NCBI RefSeq assembly: GCF_032062105.1
Contig: NW_026928165.1
Span: forward strand, 62,001-126,000
Source: Saccostrea cucullata
Taxonomy: Eukaryota
Reading direction: 5' to 3'
DNA: 64,000 nt
The translations under genes and the position numbers were made by a program. Of this stretch, positions 1 to 9,550 are shown piece by piece. Below the pieces are notes generated by a model. The model was not told the origin of the DNA, searched no databases, and saw only the letters and a list, made by a program, of their open reading frames with translations. Each line of letters opens with the position of its first letter. The stretch's first letter is position 1.

Positions 1-555
1 AAAAAGTGGAAAAGGTAAGAATAGAAGTGAACAACAGCAAAAAGTATTTTAAGAGAGAGAGAGAGAGATGCCGTGAGAAATATATACTTTTTCAATTCAA
101 AACAGGAATGCACGAAGAAGTATTTTCATAATCACCTGTATTCATACCATTTTCTGTTGTAAATTATTTTAGATTACCGTGACTCAACATAACATTTATA
201 AATATTCTATCGTATGGTGAAATTAGGATTTGAAAAATAATTACGGCGAGTTATAGGTATGTCTAATCCACCTGTAATTGTCTCAATACACGCACAACAG
301 GTGTCGAAATACAAAAAAAAAAAAAGAACAAAATATTTGGAGATTTTAAAAATTCCAATCATTTAAACATTTGGATACATTTATTAAAATTATTTTTCAA
401 AAATTGTTTATGAGAAAAAAGAAATGTATAAAGATCTGAGGATATTGTAGTGAATTGATTATTCCAATTAATAATAATAAAAAAAAAAAGTGTATACTAG
501 TACTTGTTTTATAGACCCTTTGTTTGATAAGGTATATAAGGAACAAAATTATCTT

Positions 556-2255
556 TTTTTTTTTTTTTTATTTATACAAAATTTTATTCACATAAGTGAA
601 TGGGATTGGGCAGCAGGCAAAGCCTATTTTAGCCCTCTCCCTACAAGGTCAAAATGAACACACAATATATAGATGTAAAAATAAATAGACACACATAGTA
701 GCAAAAACAAAAGAACAAAGACAAAAGAGAAAAAAAAAAAGTAGAAAGAGAGAGAGAAAAAAAAAATTTACAATGAAATACATGTACCGGTTATAAAGTG
801 TTGGCATGAGTAACATACATTACAATTCAAATAAAACGTTTGGTTGCTGCGATGAAAGCATGTACTGCTTCAAATATTTGAGTATTAATATTTAGTCCAT
901 AATTGGGACTACCATACAAAAGTAAATCAAGTTCATGAGTTTGATCACAATCAATAATATTTTGAATTGTTTGGAAAAGTACATTTCTTGGAGAGTTATA
1001 TTTTGGACAAGCAAAAAAATAATGATGAGCATCTTCAATAGAGTCAATACAGTATTCACACATTGGTGTTTCTGATAAAAATTGGTTATATAAGTCTGCC
1101 TTTAAATTACTTGCATTATTTCGCAATTGGCAATGTATTATATTGTACTTTCTTATTCCAAAATGATAAATTTCTTTACCTTTTTTACAATAATAAGAAT
1201 TTAAAAGACTTTTAAATGAAGATATTCCAGGGGCATTTCTGATATAATCAGGCAAATCATTCCATAATTTAATAGTTGATGGGAAGAAACTTTCCATATA
1301 TGATGTAGTTCTAATAGAAGGAATTTTGAATTCTGCATCATTATTTCTTAGATTATAGGGGTGGTTTGTAGGACGAAAAGGTTCAATCAAGTCCGTTAAA
1401 TATTTAGGTGAATAGCCATTTATGATTTTATATAATAGTAGCAATTTATGAATATTCCTCCTAGTTTGTAAAAGATCCCACCCTAATTCATCATACAATT
1501 TTGATCTAGAGGAATTTGATCTTAATCCAGTAATAATTCTACCAGCTTCAACTTGGATATCTTCTAAAAGTTTTGCATCTTTTTCAGAACAATTGTCCCA
1601 AACAACATCTGAATATTCTAAAACAGGTCTAATAAATGCAAAATATATCTTAATAAGTGTTTTTCTTTTCATCTTATACTTAAGCATTCTGAGGATATTT
1701 AGTCGTTTTGTAGATTTTTCATGAATTAATTGTATATGCGAAGTCCAGGTAGCATCACTTTGAAAATGTAATCCTAGGTGGGTATGAGATGCATTTTGAA
1801 TAATGGATGGGCCATGATGACCAAATGTAATAGGCGGATATTTTATATTTTTGCGGGTAAAATCAACATTTACAGTTTTGTTTGGATTAAAGTCAACAAG
1901 CCATTTTTTTGACCATTTATCAATTAGGTCTAGATCACTAGTAAGCGACTGTGCTACATTTGTGGCTTCTTTTTCTACAATAGCATATAAAGAGGTGTCA
2001 TCAGCAAAAAGACGTATATTGTTTGCTAAATCATCACAAATATCATTTATGTATAGGAGAAAGAGAAAAGGTCCCAAAACAGAACCCTGGGGAACACCAG
2101 CATTTACTGTCTCATGGTTTGATGAAAAGCCATCAATTACAACTTTTTGTTGTCTATCACACAAATAATTCTCAATCCAGCCTAATATGTTGCCATTAAT
2201 ACCATATTTTTTTTTAGTTTAGATAAGAGACCTTTATGCCAAACTTTATCAAATG
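556..2255 (-). mobile_element. 5'-truncated non-LTR retrotransposon (CR1/L2 group) with poly(A) tail and 12-bp TSD
   Basis: Poly-T at ~554-569 is the poly(A) tail. CAAAATTATCTT is repeated at 544-555 and 2256-2267. The element starts abruptly inside RT at AFDKVWHKGLL. Confidence 0.9.
827..2255 (-). CDS. LINE ORF2 C-terminal part (RT domain plus C-terminal Cys/His motif), N-terminally truncated
   Basis: GVPQGSVLGP, FADD and HLG RT motifs; C-terminal CxxC...HYFFAC. The frame is open from 827 to ~2206 and shifts in an A9 run at 2207-2215 before AFDKV. Confidence 0.9.
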
Positions 2256-3007
2256 CAAAATTATCTTAACGATATTGAATAATTGTTTCAAATGTCGAAA
2301 ATCGTACCTTTAAAAATTGACATACATGTATTAAGAATTTGTTATTTTTGCAGGTGTATCGGAGCACAATATGAATGAATTGAACGTACTTAAAATTGTA
2401 TTAATGAAAATTGATAGAAAGTCAACTTTATGCTTGAACAGGTGACTTTTCCTTCCATATATCAATAAATAATTATTATTTACACAAGAAAACATCGAAT
2501 TTCATTAACCATAAACTGACACTCGTCGGGTATTTTCTTTTTTGCACAATCTTAAATTAACACGTCAAGATTTTGAATATTGAAATTCTAAAATGTTACA
2601 TTAAATAAAACCGACACGAATAATAAAAGTTTTCTTCAAAAACATGCCATTATATATGGTGATTATATTGCAATCTTCAGCAAGGACACTTGTGTTGTTC
2701 AGAAAAAAAGGAATTTAGCGACAGGTACTTCTGCAGGTGCGAGTCCATGTAATATAATTTCAATGATTAAAGTATCCAGAGGTCTGCCACACAATGTCAA
2801 ATGATAGCTTCATATTTTACAAGTGAAATGCTTACTAAAATATTCATGGACTTGTGTCCTCAAATGAAAAGAAAATTTAATCCCTTAGACAAGCTTTCTT
2901 CGACTCTGTATACAATATCAAATACAATTCACCGATATCACAAAAGTACACCTGTATCTTTAGAAAAAAGTAATTTTTTCAATTGCATTGAAAATAAGAT
3001 GCTTATT

Positions 3008-3030
3008 GAGAGAGAGAGAGAGAGAGAGAG
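3008..3030. repeat. (GA)n microsatellite
   Basis: Pure GA run. Confidence 0.9.
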
Positions 3031-7158: not shown

Positions 7159-7439
7159 TTTTCACCGGTAAAATGATTTTTTTTAAAAAAGTATGGGAAT
7201 TTAAAACTCTTCAAGCTTCGTAAAATCAGGGATGCTTAACCATTCCTAGACAGTTCCCCTATCGCTTTTAAATTTTTTAACCCGATTTTTTTTTTCTGGG
7301 GACATGCATGAATTCGTGGCTTCAGTGACTTTGTGGACGCCGAATGAACCGAAACTTTATTTTCTCGAGTTTCGTTTTTAAATCATGTTCCTCCTTTCGA
7401 TAAAAATACCATATCCACGTTTGATTCTTAAGAAATCAT

Positions 7440-7580
7440 ATTTAGTCTCTGCCAATCACAGAGCGTGATTTCAGAAAGGTTTATATCACTTGAACCAATC
7501 AAATTACAAAGCTCCGCCCCATATCTTTCTTGAACCAATCTGAATAAATATGCTCTCTAGAAAGGGTAACAGGTGTTAAA
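7440..7580 (-). promoter_or_regulatory. Putative snail proximal promoter: three CCAAT boxes, GC box, one E-box
   Basis: CCAAT at 7452, 7495, 7535 (CTTGAACCAATC occurs twice); CCGCCC at 7514; CAGGTG at 7570; 300-400 bp upstream of the ATG. Confidence 0.55.
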
Positions 7581-9409
7581 ACCAGTGCCTTAAAGAATTC
7601 CCTCGAAGTTTGAAAACAACAAGAGTATGATTTATTTAAGTACCTGAACTTTTTGTTTTTATTTTTATGCAACTTACATTTGCATTGAGGTTTGATGTAA
7701 GGGGGAAAATAAATATATATTTGAAGATATGGGGGCTCAACTAATTAAATAAAGACGTGTGGTAAATAAAAACAAAGAAACAACAAAGTGTCGACGACAG
7801 AATCCTACTGTTTTCTTTTCCTATTTTCTACACGGAATCCACGTGTTAGAAATTAGCAACTTCCGGGAGAAACAGACGACAAGGTGTTGAAATTCATGCC
7901 AAGTCTGATGGAAAGTAAACGTCCGCATGACTGTCTTGTTGAAATAACAAGTGTTCCATTGAAATTTGTGTTTGCTCGACGTATTTTGTCCACCCCTTCG
8001 TATTTAAAAAGACCTGCCAAGCCATCTTGTTCGATTCAAATTAATTGCTCCTCCAAATATTAAGAACTACCTCTTCATGTTAAGATAGCTTTAATCCGCT
8101 ATTGTTGTTCGAAATATAGAAAGAGCATATTTCTGGTTTCAAGTGATATATTATTTTTGCGAAATTTAAAGTCACTTCAGAAGTCTTGGGGGCAATATTT
8201 GTATTGAAAAGGAATTTAAAATTTCAAGCGGCATATAGGAAATTAAATCGTAACAAATATTGCCAATTAGTTATAGTAGCGGTCGGTTTTATTGACTTAG
8301 TGTTGGATTCAAGTAAACTCTACAAAGTACCTGTATATTTTCTATACTTCTCAGGCTTCAAAGCGATTTTAAGATTATTTTCTGAACAAATGTATTCTTA
8401 TTGCCCAGCTTAAGGAAAAATGACCTCAAGTTCGAAAGTTTCTCTGTTAAGATCATTTTGAATATCATTTAATAATGATGCACATAATTTAAATGACTTC
8501 ATTATCTATATTCATCTTTTTCATATAATATATCATTAATTCACAAAACAAAACAAAATTGTAATTTTAAAACATTTTTTACACATTATTTCAAATATGT
8601 ATTCTTTCCCTTCCCTTTCCTGAACATGTGCATATGAAATGTAGTCTTTCAAAAGAACAAAAAGAACCCATGAACAGCTATTTTAAATGCAAGATCAATC
8701 TTTAAGAACATAATTCTTGTGTAAACTAAAAACGCCTTCGCATGAAGATTTTTTCATGATTTCATTGACACTGAAAAGTGTGAATTGCTAAGTAGATTTA
8801 TTCGTATTACTATATTTTTGTGTGAAAAAGTCTTGGTTTTAACGGAAGTAATCGACACACGTGTCTGGAACTTTTCTTCCCTGCTGGGATGTTACGGTTT
8901 CACAACTGTTGAAGTAGCTGAAACAAAGCCAAGTAAAGGTGACAAGATACGAAACTGTTAAAAATAGTCACAACATGCATGTACTTTTTATATATTCTAT
9001 ATAAATGTATTTTAAAGTCTTATACATTTATTAAGTGTTAATTATACATTTTTGGCCTAGGACCTTTTTTTTCAAAGAACTTTAAAAAAGAAACTGTTTT
9101 TTAATTCTAAAATACTTATGCAAAATAACAATGATTTTTTTTTTCTAAATCAGCTTTAAATTTTATATGATTTCTTTCATTGTTCTATAAACAAAAATTA
9201 AAAAAATTAAAATGAAAAATAAATTTATAGATAAAAGCAGTAAAATTTTGTAATTTAAGTATCATCAAGCACCGCGATATAAGCATTATATACTTAAGTC
9301 ATTCTTAATCATCATTTTTTTTTTTATTTTATTGCACCCTGAAGTTTTTTTTATCAGACAGGTATAAGCAATAAAGATTGTTGGTTTCGATAATGAACGG
9401 GAGACAGTG

Positions 9410-9550
9410 ATTTTGGGCACACGTCGGGATCGCATTCCTGTGCCAGCACCTGCCGGGAACTGATTCCACGCTGGACTGACTCTGCGCCATTTTTCACCTG
9501 TTTCATTGACACGTGAACAATTGGATTTTAGACCAAAGATTCACCTGTTT
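9410..9550. promoter_or_regulatory. Putative upstream enhancer of snail (E-box cluster)
   Basis: Locally GC/CpG-rich; CACCTG at 9447, 9495, 9542 and CACGTG at ~9510. Confidence 0.4.

What the first reader, a model, noticed from the sequence alone, without database searches (positions are those of the whole stretch)
133..9547. snail locus is saturated with its own predicted binding site (RCAGGTG)
Seen: 16 CAGGTG/CACCTG in ~3.4 kb of non-LINE DNA downstream of the gene (14 are RCAGGTG), plus sites in the intron (6344, 6502), promoter (7570) and upstream (9447, 9495, 9542). A rough estimate from base composition gives under 1 site per 3.4 kb. Known: Snail proteins bind CAGGTG E-boxes, compete with E-protein/proneural bHLH dimers, and vertebrate Snail1 autorepresses. 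Inference: a large homotypic auto- or cross-regulatory domain, possibly shared with a tandem paralogue left of the window.
Basis: partly seen in the sequence, partly recalled or inferred. Interest (0 to 1): 0.7.

Follow-up and report, generated by a model that had tools for sequence, protein, structure and literature searches.

The report
Oyster Snail gene's self-binding site cluster
An oyster developmental gene of the snail family sits in a 9.4-kb stretch holding 20 copies of the short DNA word that Snail proteins of flies and humans bind, about 13 times the genome average, so the protein likely controls its own gene, as is already known in those animals, and similar pile-ups lie beside snail genes of probable clams and a probable annelid.

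Summary
Window 133-9548 holds 23 CAGGTG, 20 of them RCAGGTG and all 20 non-coding; the genome-wide rate predicts 1.6. The DNA is single-copy, the island is sharply bounded, and no comparison locus comes close: at most 6 non-coding sites in 118 other ~10-kb loci, at most 8 in 34 more chosen for holding site pairs. Only the exact word is enriched: RCAGCTG 0, RCAGGTA 3. The gene is a mollusc snail2-type C2H2 gene whose base-reading residues equal human SNAI1's. The suggested tandem paralogue is absent; the second snail gene and scratch lack islands. A four-gene snail cluster of a probable annelid shows the same sharp enrichment (47 vs 12.7), and a probable clam orthologue has a similarly placed three-site 3' element with the same rare 13-bp doublet; divergent AT-rich snail loci mostly show nothing. 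Best reading: a Snail-read, likely autoregulatory site cluster; E-protein bHLH input cannot be excluded by sequence. No binding or expression data. Known mechanism, new and unusually dense instance.

The parts
6933..7158 (-). snail2-type gene, coding exon 1 (75 codons + 1 nt); no SNAG peptide; eh1-like FAIREML and an NKDLS word
   Evidence: (spliced product identical to 406-aa database protein P0172)
6113..6932 (-). 820-bp GT-AG intron with two RCAGGTG (6344, 6502); 6344 lies in one of three units of a 32-bp local triplication (6295-6393)
5118..6112 (-). coding exon 2 with five C2H2-type fingers; base-reading positions -1, 2, 3, 6 of fingers 2-5 identical to human SNAI1 (16 of 16, read from the alignment)
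4554..4618 (-). three same-strand RCAGGTG about 500 bp past the stop, spaced 13 and 45 bp; candidate conserved 3' element (clam-like orthologue L026: three same-strand sites about 570 bp past its stop, spaced 13 and 42 bp)
2350..4419 (.). main 3' field: 8 RCAGGTG (2350, 2438, 2733, 2949, 3319, 3547, 3587, 4413) plus TCAGGTG at 3710, mixed orientation, single-copy DNA
   Evidence: partial cross-species lay
133..303 (.). three ACAGGTG at the left edge of the island, separated from the main field by the LINE
556..2255 (-). 5'-truncated LINE (RT ORF 827-2218, poly-A tail, 12-bp target-site duplication 544-555 / 2256-2267), no sites; splits the island and appears absent in two related organisms
   Evidence: loose ends at 2266/2269 resemble window 515-555 by eye
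7452..7575 (-). likely promoter: three CCAAT words, a TATA-like word near 7482-7490 and one ACAGGTG at 7569 (inferred; start site not mapped)
   Evidence: sequence
9447..9548 (-). upstream triplet of same-strand RCAGGTG spaced 48 and 47 bp

Best explanation
The 20 RCAGGTG words form a single-copy, gene-centred cluster around an oyster snail2-type gene, and they likely act as binding sites for Snail-family zinc fingers, above all the gene's own product, giving a predicted negative-feedback loop. Shown: the cluster, its sharp sequence profile, its restriction to this gene among those tested, and that the protein's base-reading residues equal those of human SNAI1. Inferred: activators switch the gene on through promoter, intron, 3' and upstream modules; rising Snail2 protein then occupies the many CAGGTG sites, displaces E-protein bHLH activators that use the same word and/or recruits a corepressor, and shuts transcription down, giving short, buffered pulses. 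Because oyster Snail2 lacks SNAG and a canonical PxDLS, repression would run through competition or the eh1-like FAIREML peptide (predicted Groucho contact).
For: 20 vs 1.56 expected; max 6 non-coding distinct sites in 118 other loci including 37 bHLH, 20 homeobox, ZEB and scratch stretches, max 8 in 34 stretches around the other 13-bp doublets; single-copy DNA. Single-substitution scan: only RCAGGTG is strongly enriched; RCAGCTG 0 vs 1.2, RCAGATG 2 vs 1.7, RCAGGTA 3 vs 1.5, RCAAGTG 4 vs 1.4. Same profile in the 38.8 kb held of a four-gene snail cluster of another animal: 47 vs 12.7 non-coding, 21 vs 3.0 between two divergent snail genes, CAGGTG top hexamer under Markov-2. Clam-like orthologues L026 and L043 each 3 vs 0.5; the 13-bp same-strand doublet occurs only 34 times in the oyster genome yet sits 3' of both the oyster gene and L026. 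In a related organism, aligned blocks with sites diverge 4.0% (40 of 991) vs 8.1% (28 of 344) without, p 0.004. CAGGTG is the high-affinity Snail site and snail autorepresses in fly (PMC12135202, abstract and passages) and human (PMC6616578, passages citing Peiro 2006). Limpet snail2 expression is switched on and off repeatedly while snail1 is stable (PMC9923484, passages), fitting feedback on the snail2 paralogue only. Proneural gene loci (ASC-, atonal-, neurogenin-like by my reading of their bHLH sequences) and scratch hold 1-5 sites per 10 kb.
Against: No binding, accessibility or expression data; the one RNA run laid gave 0 reads and is no test. E-protein-containing dimers read the same word (Da/Sc prefers CAGGTG in vitro, and fly wor and scrt have proneural-bound enhancers; PMC9102361, passages). 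Fly Snail binds CAGGTA about as well as CAGGTG (PMC3909790, passages), yet CAGGTA is at background here (5 in 9.6 kb vs 4.5 per 10 kb). A Snail1 ChIP-seq found the E-box only as a weaker motif (PMC6026864, passages). The paralogue has the same base-reading residues (translation), so cross-regulation looks identical. The enrichment is not universal: of 26 metagenome loci, 18 show none at p<0.05 (many are under 5 kb or redundant), including AT-rich divergent snail loci L033/L034 (2 vs 1.5 in 20 kb). No genome background exists for the other animals; Markov-2 under-predicts RCAGGTG about 1.4-fold in oyster (79 vs 55). Spacers of the oyster and L026 triplets do not align beyond shuffles (p 0.10-0.13). 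Base-level site conservation in close relatives is under-powered (about 1.8 changes expected, none listed, p 0.17; some differences were not listed), and one relative lacks the purine before the 2351 core. Loss of SNAG leaves the sign of the feedback open.
Confidence: 0.55

Rival explanations
1. The sites are mainly activator input: E-protein (Daughterless/E12) homodimers or heterodimers with proneural, myogenic or other bHLH partners bind RCAGGTG and switch snail2 on in neural and mesodermal precursors; Snail binding is secondary or absent.
For: Da/Sc prefers CAGGTG in vitro; proneural peaks near fly wor and scrt act as enhancers (PMC9102361, passages). Tandem E-boxes support cooperative bHLH binding (PMC8431614, passages). 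CAGGTA, which fly Snail accepts, is not enriched. Oyster snail2a/b are expressed in muscle and neural clusters of Pacific oyster gastrulae (PMC12551290, passages; which label is this gene was not determined).
Against: In vivo ASC data are dominated by CAGCTG (PMC9102361), and the island has 0 CAGCTG in 9.6 kb. Proneural gene loci and scratch in this genome lack islands. It does not by itself explain why the densest locus found is the gene for a CAGGTG-binding protein, in more than one lineage.
Confidence: 0.25
2. The sites are repressor input from another gene: the paralogue (snail1-type), Scratch or ZEB keeps snail2 off in their cells; cross-regulation without autoregulation.
For: The paralogue has identical base-reading residues in fingers 2-5 (translation) but no island of its own, which fits one-way repression. 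AACAGGTG is the top 8-mer (7 vs 0.2), resembling Scratch/Worniu-type preference (recalled, not checked).
Against: ZEB sites are recalled to include CAGGTA without purine preference; CAGGTA is not enriched and the purine bias is strong. A protein that recognises these sites and is made from this locus would meet them first. In the probable annelid the sites surround all four clustered snail genes.
Confidence: 0.12
3. No regulatory meaning: chance, a repeat, zinc-finger linker codons, or splice-site words (CAG|GTG).
For: Other C2H2 loci reach 10-14 RCAGGTG per 10 kb through HTGEK linker codons; repeats carry GCAGGTGCG or TCAGGTG elsewhere; site 2351 looks like an acceptor; the region was picked after the fact; RNA could not be tested.
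Against: All 20 sites are non-coding with unrelated flanks, on both strands (13 vs 9 cores), in single-copy DNA; a negative-binomial fit to 116 loci gives P(>=20) 6e-8, about 0.007 such windows per genome (not valid for repeat- or linker-driven windows); enrichment recurs at snail genes of other animals.
Confidence: 0.04

Closest known systems
Drosophila snail autoregulation through proximal and distal enhancers (PMC12135202; abstract and passages read)
   Same: snail-family gene with CAGGTG sites in its own regulatory DNA; negative feedback; distal sites proposed as a sink
   Different: Shown there by ChIP and deletions, here only predicted. The oyster sites surround the gene, mostly 3'; oyster protein lacks canonical PxDLS CtBP motifs; the fly's site count per kb was not seen, so 'denser than fly' is not established.
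Human SNAI1 binding and repressing its own promoter; conserved 3' SNAI1 enhancer (PMC6616578, passages; Peiro 2006 itself not held)
   Same: Same core word, identical base-reading residues in four fingers, a promoter-proximal site (7569) and 3' regulatory DNA
   Different: 20 sites over 9.4 kb rather than a promoter E-box; no SNAG peptide in the oyster protein; mollusc snail2 is not the orthologue of vertebrate SNAI2
Homotypic clusters of transcription-factor sites, and Snail/ZEB versus bHLH competition at E-boxes (PMC8431614, passages)
   Same: Many copies of one word in non-repetitive regulatory DNA of a developmental regulator
   Different: Here the word is the predicted target of the resident gene's product, is confined to one of two paralogues, and extends over several separate modules

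Membership tests
Snail family (snail branch of the Snail/Scratch superfamily) | five C-terminal C2H2-type fingers with snail-type first, second and last fingers | tested here: met
Snail family (snail branch of the Snail/Scratch superfamily) | groups with snail rather than scratch proteins; mollusc snail2 clade | tested here: met
   inside a 27-row clade (95/96) with Lottia and Crepidula proteins labelled snail2; paralogue C10597 and scratch C6710 fall outside; midpoint root, one tree search
Snail family (snail branch of the Snail/Scratch superfamily) | N-terminal SNAG peptide (variable in the family, PMC2688512, so not decisive for membership) | tested here: not met
   absent in 5 of 5 full-length oyster proteins, present in Pecten, Pinctada, Mytilus; no SNAG-like frame in 164 kb around the gene
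Snail family (snail branch of the Snail/Scratch superfamily) | PxDLS CtBP motif (variable) | tested here: not met
   only NKDLS and ELDLS
Direct transcriptional autoregulation of snail genes | product recognises the word | tested here: inconclusive
   16 of 16 base-reading positions equal human SNAI1; no binding assay
Direct transcriptional autoregulation of snail genes | sites present in the gene's own non-coding DNA above background | tested here: met
Direct transcriptional autoregulation of snail genes | protein occupies these sites in vivo | not testable with these tools
   needs ChIP or CUT&Tag
Direct transcriptional autoregulation of snail genes | expression changes when protein or sites are removed | not testable with these tools
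   needs knock-down and reporter work
Homotypic binding-site cluster | many copies of one word with unrelated flanks in single-copy DNA | tested here: met
Homotypic binding-site cluster | sites under purifying selection | tested here: inconclusive
   blocks with sites less diverged (p 0.004) but base-level test p 0.17; only 2256-3960 laid; L026 spacing shared but spacers unalignable
Repeat- or transposon-derived E-box array | sites lie in copies of a repeat unit | tested here: not met
   only site 6344 sits in a short local triplication

The most novel reading that the evidence does not exclude
A self-binding site field, including a 3' three-site element with a fixed 13-bp doublet, is an ancient feature of lophotrochozoan snail loci, kept by site grammar rather than alignable sequence between oysters and clams (split roughly half a billion years ago, recalled) and retained by only one paralogue after duplication; in oysters it is read by a Snail2 that swapped SNAG for an eh1-like repressor peptide.
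Probability: 0.2. Interest if true: 0.65.

Novelty: new member of a known kind. Interest (0 to 1): 0.42.

Why it matters
Snail autoregulation is established only in fly and mammals. If the reading holds, the loop can be seen directly in raw sequence in a third major animal branch, it distinguishes the two mollusc paralogues (one dynamic and site-rich, one stable and site-poor), and it hands spiralian developmental biology a short, mapped, mutable candidate enhancer where almost none are known. My paper searches (open-licence PMC and bioRxiv only) returned nothing on such clusters at mollusc or annelid snail genes; that is not proof that it is unpublished.

Tried and rejected
Tandem paralogue to the left: none found. 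Adjacency of the two snail contigs: their ends share only a dispersed repeat, so linkage is untested. Repeat origin: rejected. Twist-type or symmetric E-boxes: not enriched. Partner motifs (14 recalled words such as Su(H), HES, Sox, TCF, GATA): none clearly enriched. Snail relatives in prokaryote genome contigs: none. Naming L026's animal by protein search: no named close hit; placed by tree only. ZEB locus as a parallel case: 22 and 27 CAGGTG+CAGGTA per 10 kb upstream of its main exon looked striking, but CAGGTA reaches 10-14 per 10 kb in 8 of 34 unrelated stretches, so only a weak lead. High counts at other C2H2 loci were traced to linker codons. Earlier scan findings: nothing on this locus. 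PMC1929141 (passages) and PMC1310626 (passages) added nothing decisive; Peiro 2006 and Soleimani 2012 were not held. No fold or complex was run: the open question is protein-DNA. Comparison sets were partial: 37 of 66 HLH matches, 20 of 76 homeodomain matches, 40 hand-placed stretches on large contigs; no whole-genome window scan was possible.
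Full report
1. Observation. The remaining 54.4 kb of the window hold 12 CAGGTG and 5 RCAGGTG. The genome holds 193,555 RCAGGTG in 1,170.6 Mb, so 1.56 are expected; p about 7e-16. GCAGGTGCG occurs 4 times within 1.9 kb here and 2,166 times in the genome. The island has edges: along 164 kb of the contig, RCAGGTG per 2 kb is 0-2 everywhere except the five bins over the gene (3, 7, 4, 3, 3).

2. The gene. Two coding exons on the minus strand (7158-6933, 6112-5118), an 820-bp GT-AG intron, and a 406-aa product identical to database protein P0172, labelled Saccostrea cucullata SNAI2-like. 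The tree puts it in a clade with Lottia and Crepidula proteins labelled snail2 (95/96). Fingers 2-5 match human SNAI1 at all 16 canonical base-reading positions (my reading of the alignment). Five of five full-length oyster proteins lack SNAG, which Pinctada, Pecten and Mytilus keep; oysters and Pinctada share an eh1-like FAI-x-x-ML peptide (eh1 consensus recalled, PMC1310626 passages give only examples). SNAG loss in single paralogues is common in this family (PMC2688512, passages). The best matches in the genome are this gene, one paralogue on C10597 and one scratch on C6710; none lies left of the window (150 of 1,587 candidates scored).

3. Controls inside the genome. After masking ORFs and collapsing repeat copies the snail window keeps 20 distinct sites in 7,579 bp; the 118 other loci (40 hand-placed, 37 bHLH, 20 homeobox, 3 scratch, 4 ZEB, 10 other zinc-finger, 4 other) reach at most 6. 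Thirty-four further stretches around the genome's other RCAGGTG-N6-RCAGGTG doublets reach at most 8. The paralogue (1.3 per 10 kb over 54.5 kb) and scratch (at most 3 per 5 kb over 70 kb) are at background. Unmasked C2H2 loci reach 10-14 through HTGEK linker codons, a confound that does not apply here. Site-bearing DNA is single-copy apart from a GA microsatellite. A LINE with a 12-bp target-site duplication has split the island; two related organisms seem to lack it.

4. What the word says about its reader. Changing any one letter removes the signal: RCAGGTG 20 vs 1.35; RCAGCTG 0 vs 1.24; RCAGATG 2 vs 1.73; RCATGTG 1 vs 2.21; RCAGGTA 3 vs 1.51; RCAAGTG 4 vs 1.4; YCAGGTG 2 vs 1.4. CAGGTG is the high-affinity Snail site (PMC12135202 and PMC6616578, passages). 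Absence of CAGCTG argues against proneural ASC factors as main readers, whose in-vivo motif is CAGCTG, but Da/Sc prefers CAGGTG in vitro (PMC9102361, passages), so E-protein dimers remain possible. Absence of CAGGTA argues against ZEB (preference recalled) but also sits uneasily with fly Snail, which binds CAGGTA about equally (PMC3909790, passages).

5. Other animals. One search returned 26 snail loci from metagenome contigs. Eight pass p<0.05 against a local Markov-2 model, and they are four independent cases. (a) L021, L023, L038, one contig with four snail genes, probably an annelid (weak tree support, 85/74): CAGGTG is the top hexamer under Markov-2, second under Markov-3 and not notable under Markov-4; non-coding RCAGGTG 47 vs 12.7, 21 vs 3.0 in 7.8 kb between two divergent genes, with the same one-letter sharpness. 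(b, c) L026 and L043, which group with Mya arenaria (100/99): 3 vs 0.5 each. L026's three sites are same-strand, about 570 bp past the stop, spaced 13 and 42 bp; the oyster has three same-strand sites about 500 bp past the stop, spaced 13 and 45 bp. The doublet pattern occurs 34 times in the oyster genome, a naive chance of 4e-5 for L026's 1,245 bp, but this was noticed after the fact, clustering raises the odds, and the spacers do not align beyond shuffles (p 0.10-0.13). (d) L036/L037/L040, one AT-rich divergent gene: 5 vs 1.4, modest. The other 18 loci show nothing significant, including L029 (a paralogue-type gene, 1 vs 0.7) and L033/L034 (2 vs 1.5 in 20 kb); many are short or redundant. 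No genome background exists for these animals.

6. Close relatives. Laying DNA contigs of two related organisms on 2256-3960: in X5, aligned blocks with sites differ at 40 of 991 bases and blocks without at 28 of 344 (p 0.004). Sites 2734 and 2949 are unchanged in X5; 3320, 3548, 3587 show no listed change in X5 or X1, 3710 none in X1; X1 lacks the G before the 2351 core; 22 differences were not listed. About 1.8 changes were expected in the covered sites (p 0.17). Suggestive only. The RNA run gave no reads and is no test.

7. Mechanism. Shown: cluster, specificity, uniqueness among tested loci, recurrence at some snail loci, conserved recognition residues. Inferred: Snail2 binds these sites and damps its own transcription by displacing E-protein activators and/or through the eh1-like peptide (0.55). 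Limpet snail2 is repeatedly switched on and off whereas snail1 is stable (PMC9923484, passages), which fits but does not prove it. Rivals: bHLH activator input (0.25), cross-repression by paralogue, Scratch or ZEB (0.12), no function (0.04). The first two are compatible with the best reading as a competition switch.

8. Against what is known. It works like fly and human snail autoregulation; membership cannot be granted without occupancy and perturbation data. Mechanistically it is a known kind; new are the lineage, the density, the restriction to one paralogue and the candidate conserved 3' element. Papers were seen as abstract plus passages (PMC12135202) or passages only (PMC6616578, PMC2688512, PMC3909790, PMC9102361, PMC8431614, PMC9923484, PMC12551290, PMC6026864, PMC1929141, PMC1310626); no supplements were read; Mauhin 1993, Peiro 2006 and Soleimani 2012 are known only through those citations. 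Interest 0.42.

Noticed in passing
window 7158-7185 (minus strand) and proteins P0002, P0005, P0151, P0165, P0172: Oyster Snail2 lacks SNAG while Pinctada, Pecten and Mytilus keep it; the bases just before the start codon read, out of frame and with a stop, like a decayed K-S-F...V-K relic of the SNAG peptide (by eye, untested). Oysters and Pinctada share an eh1-like FAI-x-x-ML peptide.
   Followed up: partly
window 4531-4542 (minus strand) and 4140-4640: A clean TATA-box-like word directly follows the three-site 3' element, pointing away from the gene into a GC-richer block with two CACGCG and one GTGGGAA; could be an enhancer or a promoter of an unannotated RNA. No RNA test was possible.
   Followed up: no
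window 6340-6357 and 9491-9508: The same 18-bp word around a site occurs in the intron and in the upstream triplet, each with a Sox-like CATTG three bases away.
   Followed up: no
L021, L023, L038 (one metagenome contig): Four snail genes within 39 kb, two of them divergent, in a probable annelid, with an RCAGGTG-rich intergenic region.
   Followed up: partly
G000:C5270:102001-122000 (L147, L148): DNA upstream of the main ZEB exon holds 22 and 27 CAGGTG+CAGGTA per 10 kb (mean about 8.7), a possible ZEB self-site region; weak because CAGGTA counts are heavy-tailed.
   Followed up: partly
G000:C7838:196801-206800 (L065): An Atoh8-like bHLH locus has the highest RCAGGTG count among bHLH controls (9; 6 non-coding): a candidate Snail or E-protein target.
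   Followed up: no
window 556-2255: Recent-looking 5'-truncated LINE insertion with a 12-bp target-site duplication inside the island; relatives appear to have the empty site.
   Followed up: partly
window 28615-32853 (minus strand): Retrotransposon with gag-like, reverse transcriptase and tyrosine-recombinase frames (DIRS/Ngaro-like by recall).
   Followed up: partly
window 17282-23951, 42047-42746, 49779-50634: Satellite arrays with periods of about 382, 166 and 147 bp.
   Followed up: no
window 9600-64000: No intact long host-gene ORF in the 54 kb upstream of the gene at a 110-aa cut-off; may be a gene-poor regulatory flank (small exons would be missed).
   Followed up: no
G000:C10597:318145-319153: The paralogue also shows no SNAG-like frame within the fetched 40 kb upstream; it has a splice-acceptor-like word before its long exon.
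   Followed up: partly
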